The notes beneath the pieces are model-generated. The model saw only the letters and a list, made by a program, of their open reading frames with translations. It was not told where the DNA came from and did no database searches. Positions 3,508 through 59,200 of a DNA stretch of 64,000 bases are shown piece by piece. The stretch lies in assembly GCA_965285935.1 (NCBI GenBank), contig OZ260661.1, positions 38,378,001-38,442,000 of the forward strand, in the 5' to 3' direction. Source of the DNA: Ophelia neglecta (lineage: Eukaryota). Both the position numbers and the translations under genes were made by a program. The first letter of the stretch is position 1. Every line of letters begins with the position of its first letter.

Positions 3508-3663
3508 TTAGGAGATGTCTACACAGCCAATTAAGTCAGCACGCATGCATTTGTTACTATCTTTGAATGCAGATAGAGGAATGAGTCGAATCATCTGAGC
3601 CGTGATTGGCTGCCATAACATGTTAGTCTGCAAACTGTTCTGGTCGCTATTACCAGGGAAGAC
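3508..3663 (-). CDS. Discoidin (F5/8 type C) gene, last shared (constant) exon
   Basis: Acceptor cctcccacag|GTC. Encodes VFPGNSDQNSLQTNMLWQPITAQMIRLIPLSAFKDSNKCMRADLIGCVDIS*, the C-terminal F5/8C motifs (F.GN.D, PI.A..IRL.P, CMR.EL.GC). Confidence 0.93.
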   Translation of the reverse strand, partial: VFPGNSDQNSLQTNMLWQPITAQMIRLIPLSAFKDSNKCMRADLIGCVDIS

Positions 3664-3924: not shown

Positions 3925-4115
3925 CTGATCTTGGCCCAGGATGTCTGCGTAGGTAGTCCACTGGACCTCCTCTCCACTGGCAGTGGCGTCTCCGTACTGG
4001 AGCTGGTAGGAAGTCACCCACTGGGTGTAGTCTGCTCGACCTCGGGTCACCATGCCGTATATCACCCTGGGCGAACCAAGATCAAACTGGATCCATTCAT
4101 CACCATTTGGCTCTT
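3925..4115 (-). CDS. Discoidin (F5/8 type C) gene, shared (constant) middle exon; not in the ORF track
   Basis: ttgcag|AA GAG ... GAT CAG|gtagga, 191 bp, phase 1 to 0. Encodes (K)EPNGDEWIQFDLGSPRVIYGMVTRGRADYTQWVTSYQLQYGDATASGEEVQWTTYADILGQDQ, with the hallmark WIQ.DLG, T.GR and WVTSY motifs. Confidence 0.93.
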
Positions 4116-4371: not shown

Positions 4372-5354
4372 TTAAACTGAGGGTAAGATGCCATTGATCT
4401 ATTTAACTGAGGGCAAGATGCCATTGATCTATTTAACTGAGGGCCAGCTGCCATTGATCTATTTAACTGAGGGCAAGATGCCATTGATCTATTTAACTGA
4501 GGGCCAGCTGCCATTGATCTATTTAACTGAGGGCAAGATGCCATTGGTCTATTTAACTGAGGTCAAGATGCTATTGATCTATTTAACTGTGGGCCAGCTG
4601 CCATTGATCTATTTAACTGAGGGCAAGATGCCATTGATCTATTTAACTGAGGACAAGATGCCATTGATCTATTTAACTGAGGGCCAGCTGCCATTGCTCT
4701 ATTTAACTGAGGGCAAGATGCCATTGATCTATTTAACTGAGGGCAAGATGCCATTGGTCTATTTAACTGAGGTCAAGATGCTATTGATCTATTTAACTGT
4801 GGGCCAGCTGCCATTGATCTATTTAACTGAGGACAAGATGCCATTGATCTATTTAACTGAGGGCAAGATGCCATTGATCTATTTAACTGAGGGCAAGATG
4901 CCATTGATCTATTTAACTGAGGGCAAGATGCCATTGATCTATTTAACTGAGGACAAGATGCCTTTGATCTTTTTAACTGAGGACAAGATGCCATTGATCT
5001 ATTTAACTGAGGGAAAGATGCCATTGATCTATTTAACTGAGGACAAGATGCCATTGATCTATTTAACTGAGGGCAAGATGCCATTGATCTGAGGGCAAGA
5101 TGCCATTGATATTTAACTGAGGGCAATATGCCATTGATATCTATTTAACTGAGGGCAAGATGCCATTGATCTATTTAACTGAGGGCAAGATGCCATTGAT
5201 CTATTTAACTGAGGGCAAGATGCCATTGATCTATTTAACTGAGGGCAAGATGCCATTGGTCTATTTAACTGAGGGCATGATGCCATTGATCTATTTAACT
5301 GTGGGCCAGCTGCCATTGATCTATTTAACTGAGGGCAAGATGCCATTGATCTAT
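4372..5354. repeat. 30-bp minisatellite, ~32 copies
   Basis: Unit tttaactgagggcaagatgccattgatcta with the variant gggccagctg. A block of variants repeats at a 210-bp (7-unit) offset (4561 vs 4771). Confidence 0.97.
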
Positions 5355-7399
5355 TGCCAGCCTTCAGGCTTGGTTAATGTCTGTGTTTATATGAACCATG
5401 ATATGTAACACAGAAAATAATCATATATTAACAGACTGTCTTTGTTTATTCAATAAACATTAGAACAAGACAGCTGGAATGGGTGATCACAGGAAGAAGT
5501 CAATTTTATAGGGGATTAAGGTAATTAAGCAAAAATTGTGAATCTACTTATAGTTTGCTGCAAAAAAGTGCAGTGGGTACTGGCCAATGCTCCAGCTGGT
5601 ACAGGCACACTTCATTCATACTCATGTTTCCTTATTACCATCCAAACCAGAAGATATTTATCAACGCATACATGTATGTAGACTTCTGAAATTTTGGACA
5701 AATGGTACCATGAACATAGGGTGTCCTGCTCCTGCCTGACTTATTTTAATCTTATATTTAGATCTAATTGTAACTTGATAAAGAACTCAACATACATATA
5801 TGATAATCTCCAGCTCGACATATTCTAGACGTATGCCATAATAGGTAACTGAATTTTTTGTAGCCAAAATCTTGTCTGGCTGTGGCACATACCTAATTTA
5901 AGTTGAAGCATTTTTATTAGAGAATTCTGTCCCACAGCAAAATTACCCAAGTCTCATTAAGTCTCCTGTGGCCATTGGATATCTACATATGTATATTTCA
6001 TTTTGTTTAGAACATTTGAGCTGCGAGCAGATTTTGAGTTTTAGATCAAACCTTGTGATTTCTCTTTGAGCTATATTTAAGTAGTTAAAAAAGCATAATA
6101 GCCACTTCAGGATTCTCCCAAAAATGTCCCATTGGAGGTCCTTGTGCATTTTGATCAAATATGTCATATTTTATAAATTGACCAGGTATGTGATTCTGTT
6201 AACCACTGTTAGGGTGATACCTTTGCAGTGGTCTAGTCAGGCTGGGTGATCTAAGGTGCAATAGTGCCCATAACAAACATCATGCAGTGATTGATAGTGT
6301 TTCTAGTTGAAATCCTAAAAGCAATGGGAATTGTATAACTTAAACACAATCTGGGCCAAGTACATATATTTTAAATATGGTGTCAATGTAATCAGAACTT
6401 GACATGAAACATCGTTTTACCTAAATGTGTCCCATTGAGAAATTTGTCAAGGCCTGCCATTCCCTAACTTTTATCATTCATTGACATTTTTAAACATATC
6501 TCATATCTTTTGAGTGTGTTCACATAAATTGAACAAAAGATATTCCAAGCATGTCCCACCATTATTATTCAGCCTGAAAGGACAATATTTTAAATGGACA
6601 GGGTGAATCAATTCATTTTAAATGATTTGTAAAATGGGATGGACATGATTGTATTGGTCAACAGGGAGTCTGGGGTAGGGGTAGAGACCCCTTAAAGTGT
6701 AGATGGAATAATATGATGGACAGAGGAACAGCCGGACCTTAATTCACTCTGTATACACTCATAAGAAGGAGGCTGGCATGAGTTAACAGGGACCAGTCCT
6801 GCTGTACCTGGGCCTTTAGGGTAAATAGGGTGAAAGTAACAGATACCTTGTAGATTCACAGTGCATCCAGTCCATAATGTAAACCAGTTAGCTACCACTT
6901 CTGTTTTGTAGACCATCAGCATGCAATATTGACATGCAAGCTTTAAATAATGTAGACAAACTGCAGGCTAGACTAGCTGACAAAAAGCCCAGAACAATGG
7001 CCAGGTGTGGTGTACTGATAAACCAACAAACTCATCCTCTGTTAAATATTCCCGGTATTGAATATCATTCTTGTATAAATATAGTTTTACTCATTAGATG
7101 ATGCCAGAACCATAGTTCATCCCTTAGTACATGTACATGTACATGTACATGTAGATACAAAATCCTACTAGAAGGGTTAGACTTTTAAATTACAGGTGAT
7201 ATTACAGGTGATATTTATATAAGTAGTACTCGGTACATGTACATGATGGGAGTGAAAGGAGCTTCAACTACATGGTTGATTTCTATTACTGTAAGTGCTC
7301 CTTCATGGTAGGTTCAAACACATTTAAGGTACCTTTAAGACAAAAGGGAAATGGAGATAATTACATGTTAAATGAAGTGGGAGAGAGTACCTATGTACC

Positions 7400-14900: not shown

Positions 14901-17026
14901 ACAATACTACATATGAGTCATGTTTTACATGAATTATCAGACATGTATATACCGGTGTATACATCTCTGGCACTATGTATTTACAGTGTTTTTGTGCTAC
15001 TGTAATGTATCGTGCCACTGCAGTGGATTTAACAGGAATACTCAAAAACTGAATTGAATATGTTCTGCTCTCTGAGCGTTTAAACTTCTTAATTTATTGA
15101 CAGTAAAATAGATGCATTTTTTTTCTTGAGATAATTATATAAAATCCAAAATTTTATAATTTTAGTTCTGTTCTCTTTACAAAATATTTGGCTTCCTTTC
15201 TTGTAAACCAGACAAAAAAGATGATGACCTTTTCTAAAAATAAATTCTACAAAAGTAGTCCATAATTATAATTCAATTTAATGAAATTAATGGCATTCTC
15301 AAGCTGGCAACCCTTGATGTACATGTGCATGTGAACAGTAACCCAAATACTATCAGGACACAATCCAGCTAGTAGCATTCTTATATTCCTCAATGTTTTT
15401 CATAAAATATCACAAACCATTAACATGAGAAAACAGTGGACATGAAGTAAAGAGTGACCAAGCTTCCCACAATCAATGGTTTGTTACCTGATGTAGACTC
15501 AGTAGAGATGCCTGTGAGGAAACAAATATACAAATATAAAGGGGAAAAAACAATTCTTGTCCATTCCTAGACTAAAAAAAATTATTTCTCAAAATCTTAA
15601 ACCAATATACATGTATTAATGTAAATGGTAGTAAGGTGAATAGGGACATCTGGGATGACTTTGTACTTAAATTGGTGGCATAACTGTTGGCATTTGTGTT
15701 TGTCACCACCCGGAATTGTCTTGTGTAGGATGTTCAGGGATACAGTCGACTTGCCACTTGGTATGTACACATACAGGCTGTACATTAGTACCGGTACATA
15801 CACGTACATGTAGAAATGTAAAGCGAAACAACACCTACTCTAGCTAAAAGCATAATTTAAGTTAGTGCAAACTGACTTATTTACTCCCTTCTGTTCATCT
15901 GAAGAGTGCAAGAACACTTAAAGGATATATGTTGCCATAAATTTCACAGACATGTTTCAAGTACAAACCAAGTGGTGAAAGTAGCCAGTAAAATTGGTTT
16001 CAGCAATGTTCTAGCATGCATTCCATGACTTCTGATGTGTGAAGGGAAATTATTAGGTACTTAACAAATTGTGAGGAGACACTGTTATCTTGGGTGTTTT
16101 TGGATCGTGCATTTTATACATGCATACTTGGTGGAAGAGCAATTTGCTATAATGTTTGCTTCCAAATATTGAAGAAAATTATAAAGTTTCAACCCATCTT
16201 TGCAATTCAACAATGAAGTTTGATCAAATGTCATGTAGTTTAAGTGATTATACTTAGGCCCTATAGCCGTTTCTCTCATCCAGTATCTAGATTTATTCAT
16301 TTCCTTGAATCACACATACTCTTATCTTTCATCAAATCACATTAGATCTTAATGTGATCATAGTTTTTATCACAAGGATTTTCCAGAGTGTTAATTATAA
16401 GCAATATGGGATAATTTCTGTGTTCCGTAGTTTTCTTGAATAAAATTGTAAACATGATAAAGAAATAGATAAATTTTCTATGGCCAAACAGAGTAATCAT
16501 ACCAGATGTGTATAATTTGCAAAGAAAGTTTTTCAGCTGTTTCAAAATTGTATGCATCATAGTTGGAACAGACTGTGGAGCTTTTTGTCCTTGTTTCAAA
16601 GAGGAAAATGTTGAGAGATTCTTTGCCAATGTCTGCGGTATATATTTTTAGCATTCATAGTCTGGGTCTAATTTTAATTATCAGTGTGAGGGTTATTTCT
16701 ATAAAGAATGACTAAGAGATGACTTTAAATAAGTGCAGCAATTTAACTATTTTTACGTGAATATACCTTGATGTCTGACTTCAAGGCTGGCACTGTTTGC
16801 CACTTAAGGTCTACACGTGGCCTCCGAATGCTGTTATACCGTCTTGTAGGTTTACGTTACAAGACCTGGCCTTCACTCGACAGAATGTACAATAAGGTTC
16901 AACCTTCAATTGCCATCCACTTTTAAAGCAGCATGAGTGAATTATGACTGCATTAAAACCACCCCTGGTTCTTCACCTTGATTTGAAGCATATTAATTCT
17001 TGGAGCGTGAGAAGTATATGACTTAC

Positions 17027-17804
17027 TAGGACACCAGGCGCCTGAGGCGGTATCGTCTGGACTGGTGTTAATCCTGCCTCTCACCGGGATGTGAGTCGCA
17101 TCGAATATACTGGAGCTGGTAATACTGGTGTCAGGAATGGACTCCTCCTCCCCAGACACTATTAGACCCTTTCTCGAGCAAAGGGAATAACCTGTTTTGA
17201 AATCATTCAGCTGCTCCTCTAACGTTGTGGTCAGTCGAACTAGCTCAGATATCCTAGTGTTGGCTTCTAGAAGCTGTTCCTGGCTAGTGAGAACCGAGTC
17301 TAAACTCTCCTGTGCCGTTTTTGCCACAGAGTCAATGCTTTCTTCTTGCTGTTTTAGGGTAGTCACAAGAGTCTGAATTTCCTGTTGCTGGCTATCCAGC
17401 CGCTCACCAATGGAGTCACATTGGTCGCATGAAGAATTGTCTGTTTTGTTTGTGTTGGCAGCTAATCCTGCAAGCAGTGTGCCCTGCTCATTGAGTGAGT
17501 TTTGGAGAGAGATGAGAGTTTTGGCCTGTTCTCCAGTCCAAACCTGGAGGGCAGAAATGTTTTGACTTAGGTCCTGTAGTGTGTCTTCCAGGCCCTCATT
17601 GCTGCCTTCTCCAGATGTTTGAGGGCACACCCCATTTTCACTCTCTTTATAGATGGGCATTAATAAAGTATAGGCACATTGTCCATTCACAGTTTTCTCA
17701 CATTGGCATGCTCGTGAATAGGTCTTTTGGCCATGGATACAGGTAAAAAATCCAAGTAGTACAATAGTAAGCCAAAGCAGGGATATATCAAGTCGTAAAG
17801 CCAT
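17027..17804 (-). CDS. Discoidin gene, variable first coding exon A: signal peptide, Cys cap, coiled coil and start of F5/8C; 374 aa when spliced to the constant exons
   Basis: ATG at 17804, hydrophobic signal peptide, RACQCEKTVNGQCAYTLLMP, heptad-rich region, then CSRKGL...ITSSS...GRIN...GAWCP. Donor CCT A|gtaagt (phase 1) is in frame with exon 3925-4115. Confidence 0.9.
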
Positions 17805-20310
17805 ATTGTTGGTGTAGAATAAAAGTGCCTGTAGATCTTATAGAACTAATATGACAGCACCATACATCTGTCCTTGTATCGCATTGAAGCAAGGTAAAAT
17901 AAACATGAAAAGTCAATGGCTAGCATAATACTACCTGTTCATTTTGTAATAAACTATTTCCCTATCCAGTGTTGTGAAGAAAGTCCAACTTATTATCATC
18001 CCGAGCTGTTAAGCCCTTATTACCAGCCAGCTAAGCCTCGCTTTTACCCAACAGGATAGGCCGGCAGCTTTGAGGCAAGCAGTGCAGTACGTGTATGAAG
18101 CCCTCAATGGCAATGACTGATCAAACCTGTAAGAAATTCACGCTTCCTGGCTACAAATAATGTCCTGCCAGTAACAGACCTATGAACATAGCTGGTATGC
18201 AGGCCGCTGCAGTTTCTTTGGAGTACTTTCAGAAGTGGCAGTCTTGGTTGGACGCTCCCTGAACATGCATTAGGATGGCCCAACCAATTTTTTTGATTGC
18301 CAGTTTCTCTATTTAAGAATCATGGAAGGCTGACTATTTCATACCAGGGCTGACATGCTTATCCCTTAAGTTCATTACTATTGTGAAGGTACAGCAAAAT
18401 ACCCAGTATTTATGAAACTCTATGCCTAAATATTTATGATGAAATGTGCATTCAATAAACAGCCGTTATAATTTGCATAAATAATTCAGTGATTATATTG
18501 CTATTTGACAGTTAGTAATGAATACAAGCCAGACAGAATTACATTTGAATCAATTATTGAGTGGGTTTTCATTTGGTACATTTGAACAGTACTTTGGGAA
18601 CTTATTAATATGGATATTTATGACTCTGGTCTGGCTTTTGTTGTTCATTGAGTAAGACACAGAATGCTGTGTTCAATGATCCAGGAATTCCTTCTTTATT
18701 ATTAATTTTACATATAACAATATCCATGTGAAAATTGGGGGAATCATGCAGGAAACAAAAAGCGTACATTTTCATTCAACACAAATAGAGATTTAGATTA
18801 TTGAAATAGTATTTTATGATTGGTAGGTGTTTTTCTACTGGTTTATAATCTACACAAAATATCCATTTGAAAAGCAACTCCTGTTTAATTTCTTAAATTT
18901 CAAGCCTACATAACATGGCGACATGTATCAATTTTTAATTTTGTCATCCAACTGCGATTTAAAAAGGCATGCATGCCCCCAATAGAATAATACATTGATA
19001 TAATTATTAATCTGTATCCTTGTATCAAAACCGTTTTTCCCAGTCTTCTTCACAATGTGTTACACATTGTTTTTTTCTTATGATGGGGTTCTCTATTATT
19101 CATGCCATGTCATGATTTACAAATTTTCTTTATCAATTTAAAACTGGCCAGTTGATGATCTACACAAATAACTGTTTACTGATTCATTATTTGATAGATT
19201 TTACAGTTCTTAATGGTCCCACCATCATGGTGCCACATATTCAGCATTGATTCTTGTTTTATAAAACTGTCTTCTAAGATCAAGACAATTCTTTCCCAAA
19301 GCATTTGAAGGTTCCACAGACATATGCTGCTAAAATGAATCTCTTAATACCAATAAGTACTGGACATGCCAGATACCTGTATCTGTTCTTCTCTACACAA
19401 ACAAACCTGCTCTCAAAAAGAGCTTTTCTACTCTGACCGCACCAGTGTCATCACCGCTAGTTCCTGACATCTGTCACAATCATTGCAATTCAATGTAAAT
19501 ATTGGTTAAATCTTTCATGTTCTTGGATATAGAATTGGTTATGATGTGTTTCCTAATACACCGCCGGCCATGTTACAGTAGGCAACTCACGCTGCACATA
19601 CCTGGTTTCCTTTGGTTTATTTGGTCTGGCCTAATGACGATGGGTTTTGTCCCAAGCTGTGACTTTCAAAAGCAACGTTTTTACCATTTGAATAGGAGAG
19701 CTAAAGACAACATGATTGTATAGGCATATACCAGGATCTGGAAATATGTACTACTATATTACTAGCATATTCTTTTTTCTCATCTGGTTAAAGAACCTAC
19801 ACAATTTTCCTTTAGGGCCTTATATACAAAATATGCCTATTACATGTAGGTTCCAATCCAATTAAGTCTCGGCGTGTTACTGTGTTAAGGATATTTGTGT
19901 TTCAATGATCTCTTTCCTTTGCACATTACTAACCCTTTATACCCAAGGAGTGGGTGGATCTAGCCTATTACAGAGCCTCTGACCGGCCCAGGGGGTCAGT
20001 GTTTGACCATCACACTGTATAGCACCATCATTAAACGTGAGCCCCGTCCCAGTCAAGTGTGTGATACCCTAGGAAGTCTGATACAGGCATTGTGCATAAT
20101 GTGGATGTATAGTGCAATACCTTTGATGAACATTGGAATATTTCAAGCATATCGCTGGTACACTTAAAAAGGATCCACTTTTTTATATTGAATCCAAAAA
20201 AATAGAAAAAAAACAATTTACATGTTAGTTGCATGCTTCAGTACTGCTTAAATGAGTTTGTTTTATAAATAAATATAAAATGTTCTTCAATTTCTCCACC
20301 TTTCATTTAA

Positions 20311-26840: not shown

Positions 26841-27642
26841 TTGGGCACCAGGCTCCAGGAATTCCAGTTGCGTGGACAGACACCTTGTCTATGCCATGCT
26901 GGTCATTGTACTGACTGGAGAGCTGGACTCCCACGTCTGTCTTGAATGTCCCGTTTTTGTACGAGGCCATCAGACCTTTCTGAAGGCATCTCTCACTTCC
27001 CTGGGTTACCGTTACCAGCGTTTTCTGTAGAGATGTAATCTTGTTCTCTAACACAGGTATCTTATCATTATAAAGCTGTTGTACTTGCTTCGCTAACGTG
27101 TCTGTATCATTCTTTATTGAAATAAGGACCATGGTGGTGCTATCGGTGACTGTCCGCATGCTATCTAACCGTGCCTGGAAGTTGTCTATTTTATTTTTGA
27201 GTGCTAGCACATCAGCAGATCCAGTCGTGGGAGGTGAGGACGATGTGTTTGAGTTTTGTACTAGAACCGTTGTGACGGTCTGCTGCACAGCTATCATGCT
27301 GGCCTGCAGACTGGAGAGCAGCTGAGCTTGTTCCAAGCTGTACCTCTGGAGCTGGCTAACGTTTTGTACCAGATTCTTAAATTCCTCTGAAGATGGACTA
27401 GAAGATGGAAACCCTGAATTTGAGGGACAAGAATCGCCGTCTGGTGGTAGTGCATTCTTGTCCAGAGGAAGTAGGAGTGTATAGGCACACTTTCCATCGA
27501 CCACATACTCACAGTCACATGTCCTCATGTAGGTCCGCTGTGCACTTCCTGTCAGCACCAGGCTGAGCAGTATACTCAATGTAGCCCAAAACAATTTCAG
27601 ACATTTTTTCCTATTCCAAGTGTCAGCTGCCATCTTGTACAT
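26841..27642 (-). CDS. Discoidin gene, variable first coding exon B, paralog of exon A; 379-382 aa when spliced to the constant exons
   Basis: ATG at 27642 or 27633 (the ORF-track start is TTG). Signal peptide, RTCDCEYVVDGKCAYTLLLP, coiled coil, CLQKGL...LSS...GAWCP. Donor CCA A|gtaagt has the same position and phase as in exon A. Confidence 0.85.
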
Positions 27643-33297: not shown

Positions 33298-33522
33298 CCA
33301 GGCCTGTCCAGAAACACCAGGCCTGTCCAAAAACACCAGCAGGCCTGTCCAAAAACACCAGCAGGCCTGTCCAAAAACACCAGGCCTGTCCAGAAACACC
33401 AGGCCTGTCCAAAAACACCAGCAGGTCTGTCCAAAAACCCCAGCAGGCCTGTCCAAAAAACACCAGGCCTGTCCAAAAACCCCAGCAGGCCTGTCCAAAA
33501 AACACCAGGCCTGTCCAAAAAC
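33298..33522. repeat. 20-24-bp minisatellite, ~10 copies
   Basis: Unit caggcctgtccaaaaacac(cag). Confidence 0.95.
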
Positions 33523-35079
33523 ACAAGTGGGCATTAAACAACTGGTGTATCTGAAAGTACATTGACATGTACAGTCTACCCTGTGTGTGTTTCCTCAGTG
33601 TTTTTGTTTACCTCCCAATAAATTCAGGCACGTGTCATATCAACTATGAATCTTTGTATAATCAATAATTTATCGAAATTCCTAATTATAATATTTTTCT
33701 AAATTATTCCATAAACAACAAAAACAGGTTAAAATTAGCCAGAGTCACATGATAAACTTTCACAACATGGCTTTGTATAAGTAACCATAAATGGTTTGTA
33801 TGTTGTGGCTGCAGGCTATAAATACCATCTTTTCTATAACTTAAGTTGCGATACACCGTCAAGAGGAAGAGTGAAGACTTACCTGGAGTTAATGACGTTT
33901 GCTATTGAGAGATACTACAAGGCAGTCTCATATCGAGGGAAACTGTTTCACTTGGTCAGTTTATCTAAATAGCAGGATGATACATATGTGGGCCCTATTC
34001 TTATAACCTCATAACACATTGTATTAAATGTAGAAGATTTATAGTCATTTCAATAACTTGAGGTTGGTGAAGACCAGTACATGTTACCTATAAAAGAGGC
34101 TTTTGTTTTACTTAGGAAACTATAAAAGAAATGATTCACATTAGTTTTTAACCTTCTGATTTATACGTGTATATAGCCTGTGGTGAAAAATGCTATTTCC
34201 TGCCAAAATTACCTTAGAACTCTCCAGTCTTCATGCTTACAGCTGTGCTGGCCCTCAAACCCTCCAGGTCAGCTACAAAATAGTGATCACATGCCTACCG
34301 GTAGTACATAGACATGTGGTCTTAGGACCATGACAGTCTTGACAATGGACAACAGTATAATGACTTGTGGTCCATTTTGATTTGCCAAACAGCCAAAAGT
34401 CTAATAAATTATAAATGCACCTTTTTGTTGGCAAGGCAAGGGTCAGATCTAACCTAATGGGCCATGTGTGGTCCAACTCAAAGTTATTTTGTCATATACA
34501 TGCGTATGTCAATGTTGCTAAAGAATTTAGCTTATGGTTTTCAATATACTTTGCTACACTGAGTCCAACATGCTACATTCTGCATATCTTACATACAGAG
34601 GAATTTAGGAGAAGTGTGCCGAGTAATTAAAATGCCCCCCACCCCCACCCCACCTCTTTTGTATTTTATATAAATTGTGAATTGTTTTTATATTGTACAA
34701 TACCACAAAATCAGTGTTTACAGATAACAAGTGTCGGTTTATATACTTTTCCTTTATTAGTAGCCCTTTAAAAAAAAATAATAGTGGAGGAGCTGAGATT
34801 GGCGAAGGTGACTCCTGAGATTAAGAAACAGCACTAGACTTGAATACCCCCATCCCTAACTCTAAAATAAACCCCAGCCCTAGCTAGCCCTAGCCCTGCT
34901 GAATAGGTAAACCTCGCCCTAACCCTTCTCTTAAATTAATCCCAGCGCAAACCCTGCTTAATTAAGGTTCATTCTATTCTAAGCTGTGCGTGATCTCATC
35001 CTCCACACTGCCTCTGCACCTCTGTCTCTAAACTATGGCCCATCTTTAGCTTTGCTGGTAATGATAAACTGGTGTCATG

Positions 35080-42046: not shown

Positions 42047-42864
42047 ACCATTTTATGCCAATCGATTAGGGCACATGATTCAAGTGCTGCAGCCTACATA
42101 GTACATTCTGTCTGGATTAGAACAAGTAAATTAATGTGACCTTAAAGATGATATGGCTTTCATTCTGGTGGCATTTTTTTGTCAGTTTGGTTCATTTCTA
42201 GGTGTGGTTTGCATCCTTAAGGAGACATTTTTGCTGATCATAGGTTAGGCATATGAAGACTTAATATTCTTGTTTCTTGGTCATTAAATGGTAAAATATC
42301 AGAATCTGTGAAGAATCAACTTGAAATATGGCAGTCATTTAAGTCATGTACAGCTCAATGCCCTATGTGTACTAAGCTGACAAAATGCAAGAAGCGCACT
42401 GCACACAGCTTACCAGCTATGTAATATTAAAGAAGCACACAAACTATCAATGTGGCTGGGCACAGCTAAAAACTAACCCAGACATGGTAAACAGGCACAA
42501 ATTCAAAACCAGGAATTTTGGGGGGGATTTCAAATTCTAAATATCTTGGATGGAAAAAATGCCCTCCCCAAAGAACTGTAACATACAGATCCAGCAATCA
42601 TAAACTGATCTACATTGATAACATTTGTCTTCACACAGCAGTAATGTCATGCAAGCAAAGTAACAACCTGCTTTACAGCAAGCAGTTTTTCTTGCACAAT
42701 TTGAAATTGGATTGATATGCCTACACATGCTTTAACTTGTGCCTGATCATTAAGTAATTCTCTTCAAAATGCCCTTTTTATACAAAATTGGAAACATACA
42801 TGTTAACATTTTATTGCTATACTCAATTAGGTACTATGTTTTATTATTATACAAAGTAATAAAG

Positions 42865-43660
42865 CTTGGCTTGATGACCGGTCAGTAGGAACTTGGCTTG
42901 ATGACCGGTCAGTGGGAACTGGGCTTGAAGACCGGTCAGTAGGAACTGGGCTTGATGAGTGGCTGGTAGGAACTGGGCTTGATGACCGGTCAGTAGGAAC
43001 TGGGCTTGATGAGTGGCTGGTAGGAACTGGGCTTGATGACCGGTCAGTAGGAACTGGGCTTAATGACCAGTCAGTAGGAACTGGGCTTGATGACCGGTCA
43101 GTAGGAACTGGGCTTGATGAGTGGCTGGTAGGAACTGGGCTTGATGACCGGTCAGTAGGAACTGGGCTTAATGACCGGTCAGTAGGAACTGGGCTTGATG
43201 ACCGGTCAGTAGGAACTGGGCTTGATGAGTGGCTGGTAGGAACTGGGCTTAATGACCGGTCAGTAGGAACTGGGCTTAATGCCCGGTCAGTAGGAACTTG
43301 GCTTGATGACCGGTCAGTGGGAACTGGGCTTGATGACCAGTCAGTAGGAATTGGGCTTGATGACCAGTCAGTAGGAACTGGGATTGATGACCAGTCAGTA
43401 GGGACTGGGATTGATGACCAGTCAGTAGGGACTGGGCTTGATGAGTGGCTGGTAGGAACTGGGATTGATGACCAGTCAGTAGGAACTGGGATTGATGAGT
43501 GGCTGGTAGGAACTAGGATTGATGACCAGTCAGTAGGGACTGGGATTGATGACCAGTCAGTAGGGACTGGGCTTGATGAGTGGCTGGTAGGAACTGGGAT
43601 TGATGACCAGTCAGTAGGAACTGGGATTGATGAGTGGCTGGTAGGAACTAGGAGGCCAGA
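42865..43660. repeat. 27-bp minisatellite, ~29 copies
   Basis: Unit ggaactgggcttgatgaccggtcagta with an alternative tail gagtggctggta. Confidence 0.97.
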
Positions 43661-44164
43661 TCAGTGGATGGTAGGACCTTGGCAGCATGCATTGTGATAT
43701 CACTACATGATAATGTTGCAAAATTAAAGGATGCTGCTTATGTAGCCCTCAAATGCACTAAAATTGTTATTTGTTGATGTCCCCACAATGCTCACAGACC
43801 CATTCCTCTGACGGACCCTCTCACCAAGGTCTCTGATCTGTTTGTTTGACCCGCCACTGTTCCCAAGCCTTATTTGCACTGTGTATAGCTAACAGTGTTA
43901 TTGGCTCCGCCAGTGAGACCTATACTATATCTACCATACAAGAATATAGCTAACAGATATATAATAAAAAGAAATACATGTCATGTGTACACTGTTAGAC
44001 GTCTACATATAAGTATGTCCAGTGCTTCAACACACACAGAATGTATGTGCTGTGGTATGGTAAAACAAATAAAGAAAAAAAAAAAATTGAAAGAAAAATG
44101 CTTTATATTGATTTAAAGTAAATCCAGCAGTCAGGTTATCTGATAAGTGGGCCTTATTAACTTC

Positions 44165-47200: not shown

Positions 47201-50200
47201 ATAGTGCTCACTGTGGTATTGGTGACTAAGATAGTCAATTATGGCTCTGCATCATATGAACTGGCTGAGCCACCCACTCATCAAGGGACAGTGAGATGCT
47301 TATGAGGACGAAGGGGGGTGTAAAGAAAATGTACAGTTACCTCTGATATGTGTTTACTCCACAGTTTTCAATACAAAAAATATATAATACCGGTAATCTA
47401 ATTTTCATATATAGTTATAGGAGTAACAGTGTTATCTATTTTATGCCACCATTTCATTTTATAAACCTTGAATGATGAATAAGAATTAATTACCACTTGC
47501 CTACCGGCATACATAATATGGTCTGTGACTATATATAGCCTCACAGTGGCATGCATTTATGTAGAAATCACTCAGGGTAGGTATGGATCATCTGAAGGAA
47601 ACTTGGAAATTAATATCGTATAAAATTAAAGTCACTGGACACCTTTAGGCTTAAACTGTTTAATGGAGCACAGCTTCTATTTATTGCTCATGTACATGTA
47701 TATGCCACTTTATTTTTATGTTTACCAGCTTTAACAATTCAACAATAATTGAGGGAAAAAACTGTCCAGTATTATCCTCAAAGTGTGAAAGGCAGCTTCA
47801 GACAAATGTCTGAAACTTTGCTTTAAAAAAATTAGGCGATAAGCAATAAAACTCAACAATGGCCAAAGGCTGACCCTATTCAGAATCACTTGATAAAAAT
47901 AATTCATTTCTTTAATACCACCAACAAAAATATAAAAATTGTCTTGTCTTCATTGGTAGGACGGGCCTGTTAGTGTCATAAGCCAATATCTGTTGATTGG
48001 CTGAAGACAATGTGATGCTCAATAGAGACAGTTAGTGATGTCACCCAAGCTTCGTATACATAGACCTATGTTGCTTTGTGTGACTTGCAGTAACTCACCG
48101 GCTGTGACGAGCATCACGTTCGTGTTAACAAATCAGCAGGCATCAGGATCTGACGCTATCTTGCCAGGTCTACCAATGAAGGCCCGCCACGTCACTTACA
48201 ATGGATGTAAGGTTATGTGAAAACGGCAATTAAACTAGGATTCTTCTATAATTTTAGGCTGGTTGTAAGTTTGTGCTAAGTTGTAAACAGGTGTCACTGT
48301 AATAGGTTCATATTTGAACTAAAAAATTGATTTTTCCACCCATTATGCTCTGATTTGCCGTTTAAAACTATGAAATCAAGACGTGTTGTGGTGCTGCATG
48401 CACATTCATGAATGTACACGCCTTGCACTGGTACCAGCCCCACTCAGTATCTGATATCCCAAACTACTACACTTGTTAAACTCCATGTTGGCTTCATTTT
48501 TTTCAATGGATGAGAACTGGTTGGTTTTTGCTTTTAAAATAGAACTAGATAGTAGTCGATGTGGATCGAAGTCGACTTGAACAGTCAAGCGACGCCTAGC
48601 GGCGTCGCTTGGATGCCTCCGCCAAGATGTGTATTAGCGGATGAAAGATTAGGAGAAAATTGGTCAGAAGCAGATGTAGTGCTGAAAAGACTTTAGAGAC
48701 TTCGCGCGACATACAAACCTCACCTGATGAATCATGGTGGCCATCTTGTTTTTCCGATCGGTCTGAAGACAACATGAACAAAAATAAACCGAAGGTGAAA
48801 TCTCACCCTGTAAAGCTTCCACAAGACCCCCCATTAATGCACTTTTTAATAATGGCCCTGGCAGCCATTTTTTTTTCCGATCTTGCCCAAAACCTTTTCA
48901 GCACACTGCCAATGATGACTTCTGTGAAGTTTCATAATAATCCCTGCATCCGTTCGAGAGATTTCGCCCGACATACGAACCTTACCTGATGAGTCGTGGC
49001 GGCCATCTTGTTTTTTTGATCGGTCCGAAAACTATATGAAATGATCCTCTGCTTGCCATAACAAGCTTCCATGAAGACACAAGCGAATTCCTCAGAGCCC
49101 TAAATAGTTATAGCAATTCAATATGCCTATCTCTCACTGTTAAGATTTGACCTTGAAAAATAAAACCAAGGTGAAATTCAAGGTCACCACTGGATTCCTA
49201 GTATATGATTTCCTATTAGTGTTCAATACATAATATGTGCCTATCTCTACCCATTAAGCTTCCACAAGACCCCCCGTTAATGCATTTTTTAGTTATTGCC
49301 CTGGCGGCCATCTTGTTTTTCCGATCTTGCCCAAAACCTTTTCAGAACACCGCAATCTCCCAATGATGACTTCTGTGAAGTTTCATAATAATCCCTGCAT
49401 CCGTTCGAGAGATTTCACCCGACATACGAACCTTACCCGATGAGTCGTGGCGGCCATCTTGTTTTTCTGATCTGTCCGAAAACAATATGAAATGATCCTC
49501 TGCTAGACATAACAAACTTCTATGAAGCCACAAGTGTATTTCTCAAAGCCCTGAAGAGTTTTAGCGATTCAATATGCCTATCTCTCATTGTTAAGATTTG
49601 ACCTTGAAAAATAAAACCAAGGTGAAATTCAAGGTCACCACTGGATTCCTTGTATATGATTTCCTATTAGTGTTCAATACATAATATGTGCCTATCTCAC
49701 CCCGTTAAGCTTCCACAAGACCCCCCGTTAATGCATTTTTTAATTATTGCCCTGGCGGCCATCTTTTTTTTACGATCTTGCCCAAAACCTTTTCAGCACA
49801 CCGCAATCTCCCATTTATGACTTCTGTGAAGTTTCGAAATAATCCTTGCATCCGTTCGAGAGATTTCGCCCGACATACGAACCTTACCTGATGAGACGTG
49901 GCGGCCATCTTATTTTTCTGATCGGTCCGAAAACAATATGAAATGATCCCCTGCTAGCCATAACAAACTTCCATGAAGCCAGAAGTGTATTTCTCCAATC
50001 CCTGAGGAGTTATAGCGGTTCAAATAGCACAGGACGGTCGGACGGTCGGTCGGTCGGTCGGTCGGTCGGACGGACGGACGGACGGACGGACGGACGGACA
50101 ACCCGACTACATAATACCTCCGGACCCTTCGGGGCGGAGGCATAAAAATAGATATGAAAGAAAATTTAATATGTAGCCTTCCAATAGTCAGCCAGTGAAA

Positions 50201-53200: not shown

Positions 53201-56200
53201 TGGGGGTTGAACTGTTAAATGATATCTGCTAGGAGTGGGAGTGACATTTTCCGTGGGGTCATGCGTTCCTTTAATATTTTCTATTGGTGAGGGTTTTGTC
53301 AAACACTGTCAAAACAGCTTGCCAACTACAGCCGCAATGTTTTTCATTGAAGCCTACGCTGGTCCCCCACTCATGTTACCAGGCTGCTTGGAGATGGACT
53401 GGTGGTGTGAAACAGATTACTTGTTTAGATCTTTTTTTGTGTGTGTTTGGGGGGGGGGGAGGGTGGTTATTTAAATTGTAGTACTATACATTGGAGGGGG
53501 GGGGGGGGGTCATCAATATTCTATTTACCATGGTGGGGTGGGTGGTGGTGCCAGTAAATGCTAGTTCCACCCACCCTACCCAACACCATTTTAAACTGAA
53601 CAGCCGTTACCTGTTTGGATAGCTTTCCTTTCTATTGTGGAATAGATCGCTAGCTGCCACTTTCTCTCTCATCCAGTTCCTTTGATGTTTATCACAATTG
53701 GCACGGAATTTTTCACACTGAAAATGTAAAAGTCATATTGGCAGAATCAATACCAAGATCAATCTAGAAATAAATGAACAGAATTCTGAAAAAACAAGAT
53801 AAATGGCCCTGTATAAGTCTGGAGATATATAAATGACTAGTATAGACAAAAGCTTTGAGCATCTTTAATGTCTTACTTGAAAAAAGAAAATTGCCATGAC
53901 TGTGCAAAAAATAGCCCTCAAACACAAAATGTCAGTGTTTTTTCTCATTGAGTCACTTAATGTCTGTAAAATATATATACAGTATATATATGTACATATT
54001 CCACCAGTAAAGCATCACATGGCATTTTATTTGTTTCAAATTGACTCCTAAAACTCAATCCCTGTAAGGTTATTATTACTGAGCTCAGGTGACAAAATGC
54101 TGCAGTTTTTGTCTTTGATATGTACAGGTGATACTATACTTTACATGCATGTGGCGGAGGATCTGATATAAAAGAGGCAACTACACATTTTATTCACCAG
54201 AGTGGATTTGGATGGCAACAAGCAACATCCCTGACTAGGAAAGTAAGTGGTTTTGTTCAGTTGCCGTCAGAATGCAATATCCTGTCAGATTTGTGGTGAT
54301 GTGTCTGTTAACTCCAGGTCTGTTAGCTCGCATTGACTATGATAGACTCCACAGGCAGAGGCGGGCTATAGTTCTCAAACAGCTGTCCGATACTGACTGG
54401 CTACCAAGAGAAAGTACGCAATCGAGAAAACCTGCCAAAACGCCACTTCTGAAACATCCTTTTGATAAGATTGTCTGGCTATCTGTCAATTGCACTGGGA
54501 CTCTGGTGACTCCACAACATGTCTTGACTGCAGCACACTGTGTCCATGATGGGAACCAGTTCATTTATTATGCCAGTAAGCTGACGATTACACTGGGAAA
54601 TGAAAAATTGATGGTGAGTGAAATAAGGGTGCCTAAAAATTACATTGCCAAGTATGATGATTGGGCAGTGGACAAGTATCAATTTGACTTTGCTGTTGCT
54701 AAACTAGCCAAGCCAGTGGATGGCTTCAGGAAGCCTCTACATTTCCATCACAAACGAATTGCGTCTGAAGAGACTTTTAAAGCTTTGAGCTTTCTCAATG
54801 GTCACAACGTTTCTCAAGCAAACACATGTACAGCAGATTGGCAAGAAGTGAACATACTGCTGTCTGTATGCCAGTCATTTAGCGTGAAGCAAGAGGGAGC
54901 CCCAGCAATGGTACACCACTCGGGAGAGAAGTGGAAAATTCTAGGCATCATGTCCAAGGCTATTGAAGACATCAGCAATCACACCGTCTTTGCTGCAACT
55001 GTCCTGATGACCAAAAAAAATGTGTTTCTCCTGTGCAAGTTGACTGATGATCAGATGTTGGAATGTCCAAAATAATGCTTATTCTGCTTGAAGGCCGGTC
55101 AATGTTCTCTTGCCAGATTATTTATGATGTAAACATGTTTTTAAGCACTCTGCCAGTTATATTTACAATACAGAGCATGTTTATTACTACACCAGTTCTA
55201 TCACCATATGGTATGTATTGTAATGACTTCACATTTTCTACCTCATATTGTTCAGACATTATTGTTTATGCTTTGGTAATATGTTTGGTGTGGTAATCTT
55301 TTTAACACTAACTTACCCTCCATTTGTGGTGGATAACTCGTAGCTCTTCGGAGGCAAAGTAAAACATTGGTGAACAGGAAGGCCAAGACTTGTCAATCGG
55401 TGACATGGAAGGCAACTTCTTGGAAAGCTCAGTGAGGAAACGATACCTCTGTAAACAATTAAATATTAAAAATATTTACTCCTTGACCTGCTGATGTCTC
55501 TTCAATGAAGGCATTAGGGTAATTTAACAAATATGATGATGAATTCAATGAGGTACTGATACTGTAGTTATCTATGATATAATCAGAGAATAAATCATGC
55601 ATGAAAACTCCTGACTCTGGGTTTTTTGAAAGAAAATTATGTGTAAATAATGTGAATTGGTTATATATTTAAGTAAAACTTTATTTTTTAGCGCACTAAC
55701 CAAGGGATGCATAAACAAAATTCAAATACTAATTTTCTATCGTCAAGGTATGTAGATGTAGGTAAAAAAGAAGCTTACAAGAGCTTTGTGCAGAAATTTG
55801 ACTATTTTTGGTCCAGCGATAGCCCGGAACTTGCGGCGGTATTCCCGCCTCACTTTCCAGCCGAGGTAATACTTGTGGATGACACCCACTGCCCACTGGC
55901 ATCGCTTACGGTACTTGAGCTCTTTCAATAGATTCCTTGCCTGTTTAAAATGAAACATAGCCTTTTTTTAACAGGTACAGTATGAAGAGACAGATTACTA
56001 TATTGCAGTTATCTTTAATACATGATGCAAGTAAAATTTGAGAAACTGGTAAAGATAACACATAGTTGAGCCTTCAAAACTTTCTTATTTATTTGTCTGT
56101 AGGCTATAGTACTAGATAATTGAGCATTTAGAGGTTTATGCAGTTTATACCTTTCAATTGCTTCCTTCTTTTATCAAATGAATAAAAATTACAAACACAC

Positions 56201-59200
56201 CCAACCAAATTTCAAATCTCTGTAGGCCAGATAAATATTTATTTGTGGAGGTTGCTTTTAAAAACCCTTGATAACACATGGACATCCAAGACATGAGTAT
56301 TGTTCTAGTACTACCATGTAAAACAAAACATATGAAAGCCTATGCCACCTTCTGCTCATTACATACATTAGCTATAACATGTGTATGTACCTCAAATAGC
56401 AGTTAAAAAGTATGAACTGCCCAAAGTGACCTACAAGCTAAATTGCTGTCGAAAATTCAACGATACAGAATATTAACATTAGAACCATGTTTTAGTTTTG
56501 TTGAAATAAGGCCTTTTACCATCTTATTTGTTGGGCAGATCTGGACATTTCTAGCCAGGAGAAGAAAGTAGCATAGTCAAAACAAGCAGTGTAAAATCTT
56601 AACAGTATAGTTTACCTTCCAACCTCGAACAAATGAACATATGGTAATAGTGGCAAGTCTCATCCTGCGGTATTTGGTTCTACCCTAATAAATGATAACT
56701 CAAATTGGTGAAGTTACACAGAAAATAAATAAAATGTTAAAAAAAGACATAAATGGTAAATATCAGAACATGCACGTTATTTTCATCAATTATAATGTGT
56801 GCATTTTATGCCAGGGAAGAGTACAATAATGAGCACATTAATATGAAGGTCTGTATAACTAATAAATATACACAACAAGAGTGTCAGTACCAAGTTATGT
56901 ATGTAAAAAAGTAATGTCACATCATACACTAATTACTGTTTGATATAACCACATTGAAATATCAATTCATAATTAAAAGTATTCAAATTCTTCAGAAAGA
57001 TGAACTACACGTTACTTGAACTAATTGAAAAACAATTTCGGATTTACTGTGGAAAACTAAACAAACATGCAAAAAAATTACCATTCACTATAATATGCAA
57101 CTTGCTCCAATTTTATTGATTTATATGTGCCTTGTAGATTAATTTGCATACAATAAGCTAATATTTCCAGCTACACCATGCAACCAAACAAGACACTTGG
57201 TCTGGGCGACAAGTAACAAATGAAATCACCTTATGGCTACCTTTCCCCAAACACGTTAATTAAAACACATTTATTCTTGTCAAATCTGTTGTACAGAATG
57301 CTTGCTAAAAGATGTCTAGCCAGACAAGATGTCCTACCTTGTACCCCCTGTATTGCGAGGAGATGAGAGCCTGTGCTCGTTTCATGCGTAGAAAGGCCAT
57401 TCTCTGGTGCCACCCTCTCCAGACTGATTGTAACAGAGTAGCGAGGTCATGTAGGCGAACCCTCCTTCGGTCCTCCATCATGAACAGCTGGAAGTGGGGT
57501 GCAAACAAATTACAAAATTATTCTCTATCTTCATATAACTTTAAATGGACAATGGAAAAATTCAATAGGTCAACAATCCCCAGGCGGGTTTTCATAACGG
57601 AATGTTTTTAGGTCAGGTTGTTTTGAATCCCAGGTAGATGTTGAGGAGTATCAATGAGACCTTCTGGAATGGACGTCAGCGAGACGGGCCTGATGCTTTT
57701 CTGACTCTGGTGAAACTATTATTCTTGTGTGAAATAACTTGAGGTGTAGCTCTTACTGATACATTGAAACATTATACATTATCCTCTATTGATAAAACAT
57801 AACTGATAGGGCCTGTGTTTAATGGCTGAGATTTTTAGAGTAATTTATCATACAACAATCAATAAGAGATTGATAAACAAAATGAAATCTAGACTCTGGA
57901 TAAATGTACAAATTTTGCAATATTAAAACAAAATGAACCTAGGCTATAGCCATCAGACCTACACCCAGGTAACAACACAGGCAATGTATTATGTTTCAGT
58001 AAAAAAGGTATAACTACACACCATTTATCATGATATAATAAGGATGAGATTTAATGCAAAAAAAAGTCATTTGAATTTATGGAAAAAAAAAAATTGTGTT
58101 TTTACTATCATATTGCCATATCACACAACCTGGACTGCCTTGACTTAACTTTCACTGTTCAGTTCACACTATTTTCTAAGAAGCCCAGGGGTAACCATCA
58201 AGCCGTTTTCAAATGTGAACAGTGGTTAGCAGCATACATGGGTTCAAATGGGAAGTTTAATATCAAAGCAGCTTATGATTGTATAGAAGTATAATAAAAG
58301 TAGTTTGAAAATGATGGGCCCATTATGGCTGAACTACTCACAGTACTGGGGTTCCTGATGAATATTTTGGTTTTTCCGTAGGCATACTCCTCCTTGTCCA
58401 CCTGCAAAGCCTCAAGGATTTGTTTTACCCCGGCTCTGGGAGCACCATGCCACAGAGGCCAGGTGTTGTCTGCTAACATCTTGTAGCGGTAGAGGAACTG
58501 GTCGTAGGACTGCCGATACGCATATCCGGCGCGGCGCACACGCACATTCTCCAACAACCTGCAATCAGGACAGGTGATCATAACTAATGAGTTATAATCA
58601 GACATCTGGGGATAAGGCTAGAATGTTTGATTGGTGAGCTCAAAGCTTATTAGAAAAGGAAATTATGGTTTTTTTTTCATAGATTCTGCGGTCTTTCAAG
58701 CCAGTTGGAAAAAGATTCCAAACTAAATACAAATACTGAAAGAATATGTATTTTTATTCAAGACAGTGTAAAAACAAAAATATGCATCTGACAGATTATC
58801 CTTTGACTATCCTTAAAACAAAGTTTTGTGTGCACAGATCAACTTTTTTCCTCATGTTTTAGCCTTGAAAACTTTCACAACCATTACAGGTGTGAAAAGT
58901 AAGATCGCTAAGCTTTGAAACCTATGACAATTCCTCCAGTACATGTAGATACAGCTCTCGAGCCGAGTTATTCCTGGCACACTTGGTACATTACCTCTAG
59001 GTGTGCTAACGAGAAATACATTGTAAGGTGCCATTTTCTTTTTTTAATGCCATTTCTGCCTGTGATTTTTTACAAATCTATATTCTTCATCATTCAATGA
59101 ATTTTTAATATATATACCCATGTGCACTGGGAAACAATATTGTTATACGACATTAGTACCCTGATTGGGTAGCGTCATGGAGCTCAGACTGAATCAGACT

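What the first reader, a model, noticed from the sequence alone, without database searches (positions are those of the whole stretch)
17600..17804. Angiopoietin/myocilin-style oligomerisation cap and coiled coil fused to a discoidin head
Seen: right after the signal peptide both exons carry Q.TY.R.C.CE..V.G.CAYTLL.P....CP, followed by ~150 aa of heptad-rich sequence and then F5/8C. Known: angiopoietin-1 has GQCAYTFILP..C and myocilin has GRCQYTF..C at the same position, where the motif clusters coiled-coil oligomers that end in a fibrinogen or olfactomedin head. Inference: this is the same scaffold with the head swapped for a discoidin domain, giving a multivalent secreted ligand, lectin or matrix protein. 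An extra CxC upstream of the motif could form interchain bonds, and A/B hetero-oligomers would add combinatorial diversity.
Basis: partly seen in the sequence, partly recalled or inferred. Interest (0 to 1): 0.7.

Follow-up and report, generated by a model that had tools for sequence, protein, structure and literature searches.

The report
Swappable front exons, shared discoidin head
An animal gene, likely from a segmented worm, has two alternative front exons that likely splice onto one shared discoidin end, giving predicted secreted, multi-headed binding proteins of a large unnamed family whose cysteine cap resembles, but is not shown to be related to, those of angiopoietin and myocilin.

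Summary
The motif is real. Two minus-strand exons, A (17804-17027) and B (27633-26841), each encode a signal-like stretch, a CxC-x7-C-x16/19-CP cap, a two-part coiled coil and the first third of an F5/8C domain. Both end in the same phase-1 donor. The 762-Mb genome search shows only one close set of exons completing the domain (4115-3925, 3663-3508): a UGT1/protocadherin-like variable-constant layout. All 5 coding variants in B are silent. A cap profile finds an unnamed family: 83 real hits of 90 among 1.84 billion representatives. Where a head is seen it is discoidin; none showed fibrinogen or olfactomedin. Homology to angiopoietin/myocilin/noelin caps is unproven: there is no Pfam hit, and the Noelin-1 top hits in the ESM Atlas (0.80, 0.79) are only leads. 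The splice falls just after the equivalent of DDR2 Cys73, so exon choice would swap two loops of the binding face. Best reading: a secreted, disulfide-clustered, multivalent discoidin protein with isoform-specific binding faces. Oligomer state, the B splice and ligands are untested.

The parts
17027..17804 (-). Variable first coding exon A (259 codons + 1 base): signal, cap, coiled coil, first third of F5/8C; phase-1 GT donor after WCP
   Evidence: orthologue-like P0001/P0002 at 55%/48%, tree support 96
17730..17804 (-). Predicted signal peptide of A (residues 1-25)
   Evidence: hydropathy; the mature chain is inferred to start at Gln, conserved in 101 of 110 caps
17622..17729 (-). Cys cap of A (residues 26-61; Cys33, 35, 43, 60), predicted beta hairpin, likely oligomerisation knot
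17178..17597 (-). Two-part coiled coil of A (helices 70-118 and 128-209, with a CxxC at 126-129 near the break)
17027..17180 (-). Start of the discoidin domain in A (Cys209 to Cys258-Pro259), holding the equivalents of DDR2 loops L1 and L2
   Evidence: profile alignment to DDR2, loop definitions in PMC2807035
26841..27633 (-). Variable first coding exon B (264 codons + 1 base), same layout and same phase-1 donor, about 30% identical to A
   Evidence: 5 of 5 coding variants synonymous; groups with P0003, support 99
27424..27540 (-). Cys cap of B (residues 32-70; Cys39, 41, 49, 69)
3925..4115 (-). Shared constant exon C1 (phase 1 to phase 0): middle of F5/8C
   Evidence: only close copy found in the genome; 81 bits with a profile built from relatives only
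3508..3663 (-). Shared constant exon C2: end of F5/8C and stop codon, AATAAA signals within 200 bases after it

Best explanation
Two paralogous first coding exons with matching splice donors lie upstream of a single pair of discoidin-completing exons, and likely splice onto it as alternatives to give two predicted secreted proteins (374 and 379 aa) whose cysteine cap and coiled coil would cluster several discoidin heads into one multivalent binder. Shown: the exon anatomy, open reading through both joins, single copy of the constant part, the family, and the discoidin fold. Inferred: secretion; cap Cys (CxC plus two more) forming inter-chain bonds that knot coiled-coil dimers into a dimer of dimers, as described for Olfm1 and myocilin; and avid binding of a surface or matrix ligand through the top trench of the discoidin barrel. 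Because the junction lies right after the Cys equivalent to DDR2 Cys73, the first exon supplies loops L1/L2 and the shared exons supply L4/L6. Exon choice would therefore change stalk geometry and half of the binding face at once. Most likely role: a clustering ligand or matrix protein (receptor, collagen-type or glycan/lipid ligand). Common descent of the cap with noelin/myocilin/angiopoietin caps: about even odds.
For: A+C1+C2 and B+C1+C2 are both open to the same stop, with canonical GT-AG ends. The genome search finds only two such first exons and one close constant exon (the next hit is 43% identical at E 1.6e-5 on another contig). A constant-part profile hits only C1 and C2 among 2905 window ORFs, and nothing among 2785 ORFs in 60 kb of flanks. 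Five database proteins are already spliced (P0002, P0025, P0080, P0089, P0106). They come from different first-exon branches, including the A branch (P0002) and the broad branch holding B (P0080, P0089), and all continue into the same kind of tail, 41-60% identical to C1+C2. A-like P0001 and B-like P0003 sit on contigs of the same 15,836-bp length; three more pairs share a contig length. B shows 5 of 5 synonymous coding variants where 23% of possible changes are synonymous. Cap Cys are kept in 106, 106, 110 and 104 of 110 caps. AF2: hairpin, two helices, complete discoidin barrel across the junction. Olfm1 needs two N-terminal Cys for oligomerisation and forms a V-shaped dimer of dimers (PMC4463452, passages); myocilin has Cys47/Cys61 followed by a tetramer and a dimer coiled-coil segment (10.1101/154112, passages).
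Against: The B-to-C1 join is read from genome anatomy only, and the spliced relatives come from species I cannot pair, so no two isoforms with an identical tail have been seen. Shared contig length is not proof of a shared contig, and I could not see whether constant exons lie between those pairs. The genome search scores only the best candidates, so single copy is a lower bound. The cap has low AF2 confidence as a monomer (about 45-63), and its four Cys could pair within one chain. The Cys spacing differs from Olfm1 (CXCX9C there; CxC-x7-C-x16-C here). Profile searches give no link to angiopoietin or olfactomedin proteins. DDR2 Trp52 is Phe/Tyr here, Thr56 is His, and Asp69 is not kept, so the ligand cannot be read off.
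Confidence: 0.62

Rival explanations
1. The cap is a true homologue of the noelin/myocilin/angiopoietin N-terminal clustering domain, and the family arose by head swapping. This is compatible with the best explanation but adds common descent.
For: Same position and order of parts. Both caps independently return the same two Noelin-1 clusters as best hits among 7.7 million clusters. Cys-to-Cys spacing of 12-22 (mode 16) includes the 14 of myocilin Cys47/Cys61 and the 12 of Olfm1 Cys73/Cys85. The coiled coil is in two parts, as in myocilin.
Against: Atlas scores of 0.80/0.79 are leads only, and just 2-3 of the ten best named hits share the family, which the tool reads as probably wrong. 0 of 12 caps hit PF12308. 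No OLF or fibrinogen protein among 90 hits at E<=1e-3. No cap-like exon better than E 0.2 among 6950 ORFs in 200 kb beside two of the genome's own OLF loci (weak, gene ends unknown).
Confidence: 0.45
2. B is a relic or stand-alone exon: a partial tandem duplicate that is not spliced to the constant exons, or that makes a head-less cap + coiled-coil chain acting as decoy or scaffold subunit; only A makes the full protein.
For: B lies 23 kb from C1 with A in between, and read-through of its donor meets a stop 11 codons later.
Against: The donor is intact and in phase, the frame is open, 5 of 5 variants are silent, the discoidin start is conserved with P0003, and spliced proteins exist in the broad branch holding B. 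No AATAAA within 1.9 kb of the B donor.
Confidence: 0.12
3. The protein is a monomer or simple coiled-coil dimer/trimer whose cap is an intrachain disulfide-bonded binding module rather than a clustering knot.
For: The even number of cap Cys (four) allows two intrachain bonds. The cap surface is more conserved than pure clustering might need (column conservation 0.82), which could mark a site for a fixed partner.
Against: In the best-studied proteins of this plan the N-terminal Cys are inter-chain and required for higher oligomers (PMC4463452; 10.1101/154112). A lone hairpin is unlikely to be stable without partners (inference).
Confidence: 0.2

Closest known systems
Olfactomedin-1/noelin and myocilin
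   Same: Secreted; N-terminal Cys region, then coiled coil (two segments in myocilin), then one globular head; weak ESM feature likeness of the cap to Noelin-1.
   Different: The head is F5/8C, not an olfactomedin propeller; Cys pattern CxC-x7-C-x16-C against CXCX9C; no profile match; the head follows the coiled coil directly.
Angiopoietin-1/2
   Same: Signal, short N-terminal clustering segment, coiled coil, one C-terminal binding head (PMC8261516, passages).
   Different: No fibrinogen domain; no sequence link detected; direct comparison of the N-termini could not be run.
Retinoschisin (RS1)
   Same: Best single-domain PDB sequence hit for the head (E 5e-18); secreted single-discoidin protein that oligomerises through N-terminal Cys (recalled).
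DDR1/DDR2 discoidin domain
   Same: Both disulfide positions are present (Cys209/370 and Cys258/362 in A, matching DDR2 Cys30-185 and Cys73-177); aromatic residue at the Trp52 position in 46 of 50 members examined.
   Different: Secreted, no kinase or transmembrane part; Thr56 is His, Asp69 is absent; collagen binding untested.
Multiple-variable-first-exon clusters (UGT1, GCNT2, clustered protocadherins)
   Same: Tandem paralogous first exons with a common splice phase upstream of one constant set; the variable exon carries part of the recognition surface (UGT1: PMC1885805, abstract).
   Different: Only two variable exons in this genome; the split runs through a single small domain; the host is an invertebrate; separate promoters not shown.

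Membership tests
Angiopoietin / ANGPTL | C-terminal fibrinogen-like domain | tested here: not met
   The head is PF00754; no fibrinogen C-domain in any family member scanned
Angiopoietin / ANGPTL | N-terminal superclustering segment homologous to the cap | tested here: inconclusive
   No angiopoietin among 90 profile hits at E<=1e-3; a profile-profile test was not possible because no such sequences were held
Angiopoietin / ANGPTL | Central coiled coil | tested here: met
   (predicted)
Olfactomedin family (noelin, myocilin) | Olfactomedin beta-propeller | tested here: not met
Olfactomedin family (noelin, myocilin) | Noelin-1-type N-terminal domain (PF12308; CXCX9C in Olfm1) | tested here: inconclusive
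   0 of 12 caps hit PF12308; ESM Atlas top hits are PF12308 clusters at 0.80/0.79; Cys spacing differs
Olfactomedin family (noelin, myocilin) | Disulfide-linked dimer-of-dimers | not testable with these tools
   needs protein chemistry
F5/8 type C (discoidin) domain superfamily | PF00754 above cut-off and discoidin barrel fold | tested here: met
   68.7 bits (cut-off 28.2) on the spliced relative P0002; Foldseek E 1e-13, TM to target 0.81; tested on the relative, the window tail is 57% identical to it
DDR-type collagen-binding discoidin | Trp52, Thr56, Asp69 and the Cys73-Cys177 bond | tested here: not met
   Cys pair present, Trp to Phe/Tyr, Thr to His, Asp absent
Variable-first-exon / constant-exon cluster | Tandem paralogous first exons with same-phase donors and one constant set | tested here: met
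Variable-first-exon / constant-exon cluster | Each variable exon is transcribed from its own promoter and spliced to the constant exons | not testable with these tools
   needs transcripts; no acceptor-like site by a crude rule within 250 bases of either ATG

The most novel reading that the evidence does not exclude
An ancient annelid recognition system built like a protocadherin or UGT1 cluster: a bank of variable first exons, each bringing a noelin/angiopoietin-type clustering cap, its own stalk (short coiled coil to mucin-like stalks of several hundred residues with furin-like sites) and half of a discoidin binding face, all spliced to one constant half. The shared cap lets isoforms co-assemble into mixed oligomers, giving a combinatorial code for self/non-self, symbiont or cell-surface recognition.
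Probability: 0.2. Interest if true: 0.82.

Novelty: new variant of a known kind. Interest (0 to 1): 0.57.

Why it matters
It defines an unnamed family of more than 100 secreted proteins with a strongly conserved cap that has no Pfam model. Most database entries are gene calls cut at the first intron, which hides the head domain. If the cap proves homologous to the noelin/myocilin/angiopoietin N-terminus, this is a third head on that scaffold and a deep alignment for a clustering module whose structure was still unsolved in the 2015 Olfm1 paper. The variable/constant layout, with a splice through the discoidin binding trench, is a simple and testable way to diversify a binding face. I found no report of it in the searches run.

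Tried and rejected
Complex prediction of four copies of cap + first helix (residues 24-108): no verdict (0.29 against a mark of 0.32; alignment not used); not used for or against binding. Sequencing runs: no RNA holder listed. The three holders X1-X3 cover introns evenly and are one sample of one study, so they were used only for variants; no joint between exons could be tested. Foldseek of the exon-A model against PDB: nothing at E<=0.001. PDB profile search with the cap: 21 coiled-coil-type hits at E 0.15-4.4, none angiopoietin or olfactomedin; I could not check whether full-length chains of these are in that set. PF12308 search of the own genome: 0 matches. Cap profiles on 200 kb beside two OLF loci: best E 0.23 of 6950 ORFs. 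Seven of the 90 representative hits (P0077, P0098, P0103, P0107, P0114, P0115, P0119) are summed weak repeats and were dropped. Eight metagenome loci (L005-L012, 1.8-10.8 kb) each held one first exon and no constant exon; too short to test the layout. The careful tree did not finish; the quick tree has 39 of 84 forks open, and 26 of 113 members were left out for lack of a recognisable discoidin start. Two separate tandem genes: rejected, there are no constant exons between A and B. Literature: three searches for discoidin or F5/8 with coiled coil and annelid or polychaete returned 0 papers; a retinoschisin/invertebrate search listed 10 of 19 papers, none about this family by title or abstract start; a search for short motif words gave nothing relevant. 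Earlier scan findings: none.

Full report
Observation. The finding's range (17600-17804) is the start of a minus-strand ORF of 294 codons. A second ORF of 283 codons lies 9 kb upstream on the same strand. Both begin with a hydrophobic stretch, then Gln and the cap motif, then heptad-rich sequence, and both run into the first third of an F5/8C domain ending in WCP.

Gene structure. After WCP both exons have one more base and a GTAAGT donor (A at 17027, B at 26841). The only exons in the window that complete the domain are 4115-3925 and 3663-3508. Joined by coordinates in a script, A and B each read open to the same stop, 374 and 379 aa. A profile of the constant part built from five relatives, without window sequence, hits only these two exons among 2905 window ORFs (81 and 72 bits) and nothing among 2785 ORFs in 40 kb downstream and 20 kb beyond the other end of the window. 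In the 762-Mb genome, protein searches find two first exons and one close constant exon; these counts are lower bounds. So B has no discoidin end of its own and must skip A to reach one. B is not decaying: three DNA runs of one sample show five coding differences, all synonymous, where 552 of 2376 possible changes are synonymous (0.23 to the fifth power is about 0.001, ignoring transition bias). For A, run X1 holds all 79 sampled words although its contig has 56 differences over 16300-19118; none of the 40 listed rows (of 177) falls in the exon. The genome has erythrocruorin-linker matches above cut-off, so the host is likely an annelid; this is an inference from one marker.

Family. Searches with A, B and a cap profile returned 2, 12 and 64 proteins. 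The full HMMER scan of 1.84 billion representatives returned 90 at E<=1e-3, of which 83 are real and 7 are repeat artefacts. Of the 83, 64 show the discoidin start by profile and one more (P0106) has a full Pfam F5/8C; the other 18 show none, and most of them are short or cut early. Counting all proteins held, 113 of 121 carry the cap. Most stop a few to about 50 residues after the WC motif, as expected for gene calls running into the same intron; three fetched loci show the GT donor at the same place. Five are spliced and complete. None of the members scanned against Pfam has a fibrinogen or olfactomedin domain (23, 59, 33). None of the 20 clusters looked up carries a name. The cap core is the most conserved part (0.82, against 0.44 for the discoidin start and 0.26-0.38 for the coiled coil), with its four Cys kept in 104-110 of 110 sequences. 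The stalk is the variable part: some members have Ser/Thr-rich stalks in chains of 765-1945 aa, four of five examined with an RxK/RR site.

Is the layout old? In a quick tree of 87 rows, A groups with P0001 and P0002 (support 96) and B with P0003 (99). Tail identity does not follow first-exon identity: A against P0002 is 88% in the cap, 63% in the discoidin start and 57% in the tail, while A against P0025 is 62%, 49% and 60%. That fits one orthologous constant part, but it rests on five relatives of unknown species and is weak.

Structure. AF2 on exon A with 59 sequences gives a low-confidence hairpin for the cap and two confident helices. The spliced relative P0002 folds a complete barrel across the junction and matches the CASPR2, DDR2, lactadherin and factor VIII discoidin domains (E 1e-13 to 1e-11); by sequence the best single-domain hit is retinoschisin. 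In DDR2, loops L1-L3, L4 and L6 form the ligand trench with the Cys73-Cys177 bond at its floor (PMC2807035, passages). The family profile aligns WCP to that Cys73, so the variable exon supplies L1 and L2 and the constant exons supply L4 and L6. The Trp52 position is Phe or Tyr in 46 of 50 members matched by pattern, Thr56 is His in 46 of 50, and L2 length varies, mostly 8 or 11 residues; A has 11 and B has 8. A and B heads would therefore differ on one side of the trench.

The angiopoietin/myocilin claim. As a plan, the resemblance holds. Olfm1 has an N-terminal region with CXCX9C whose first two Cys are needed for oligomerisation, and forms a V-shaped dimer of dimers (PMC4463452, passages). 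Myocilin has Cys47 and Cys61 and two coiled-coil segments, tetrameric then dimeric (10.1101/154112, passages). Ang1 has a superclustering segment, a coiled coil and a head (PMC8261516, passages). As homology it is unproven: no such protein is in the profile hits, there is no Pfam Noelin-1 match in 12 caps, and nothing in PDB sequences. The only positive signal is that both caps rank Noelin-1 clusters first in the ESM Atlas, at lead-level scores. The thresholds used (about 37 bits) could miss a 25-residue remote match, so this is not a refutation. I put homology near even odds. It is not a member of either family, since the defining head is absent.

Mechanism. Most likely each isoform is secreted, pairs through its coiled coil, and is knotted at the N-terminus by the hairpin and its Cys into a tetramer or larger, displaying several discoidin heads at the far end for avid binding or receptor clustering. 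Exon choice sets stalk and half of the binding face; the shared cap would allow mixed oligomers if both are made in one cell. Exon anatomy, family and fold are shown; secretion, splicing of B, oligomer state, mixing and ligand are inferred.

Novelty. The variable-first-exon plan is known from vertebrate UGT1, GCNT2 and protocadherin clusters (PMC1885805, abstract), and a listing shows chelicerate sDscam using alternative promoters (search listing only). The scaffold plan is known too. The combination with a discoidin head, the split through the head, and the family itself were not found in the paper searches, which cover only open-access text; no supplements were read. PMC12422955 (passages) was read for a noelin N-terminal structure and gave none in the passages shown. 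Verdict: real, a new variant of a known kind, interest 0.57.

Noticed in passing
window 54239-55075 (+) and 58273-58617 (-): A single-exon trypsin-like ORF (Pfam Trypsin E 9e-10) lies opposite and near a myosin-head exon; it may be nested in a myosin intron, and its C-terminal half is divergent.
   Followed up: no
P0042, P0045, P0048, P0026 (collection proteins): Family members with Ser/Thr- and N-glycan-rich stalks of several hundred residues; three have an RRKR or RRRR site shortly before the last coiled-coil piece and discoidin start, so the head could be released by furin-type cleavage.
   Followed up: partly
P0104 (1945 aa): Carries the cap and a long stalk and ends in a hydrophobic, transmembrane-like stretch with no discoidin start detected; a membrane-anchored member or a read-through gene call.
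   Followed up: no
P0013, P0099, P0101, P0105: B-like caps that break off right after the cap core, which suggests an extra intron inside the first exon in some lineages.
   Followed up: no
P0025: Has a 9-residue insertion at the variable/constant junction that looks like an extra short phase-1 exon.
   Followed up: no
window 4372-5355, 42827-43697, 48800-50023, 33298-33527: Tandem repeats; the first (30-bp unit) sits about 250 bases upstream of the acceptor of the first constant exon.
   Followed up: no
G000:C7:107691558-107692262 and 107698328-107698663 (L025): An olfactomedin exon with a partial second copy 6.8 kb away; coiled-coil ORFs in the 10 kb upstream (L026) have no recognisable cap.
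   Followed up: partly
G000:C2:98811028-98817721 (L003, L004): Two tandem weak matches to the discoidin start of exon A (45% over 44 aa), another F5/8C-bearing gene.
   Followed up: no
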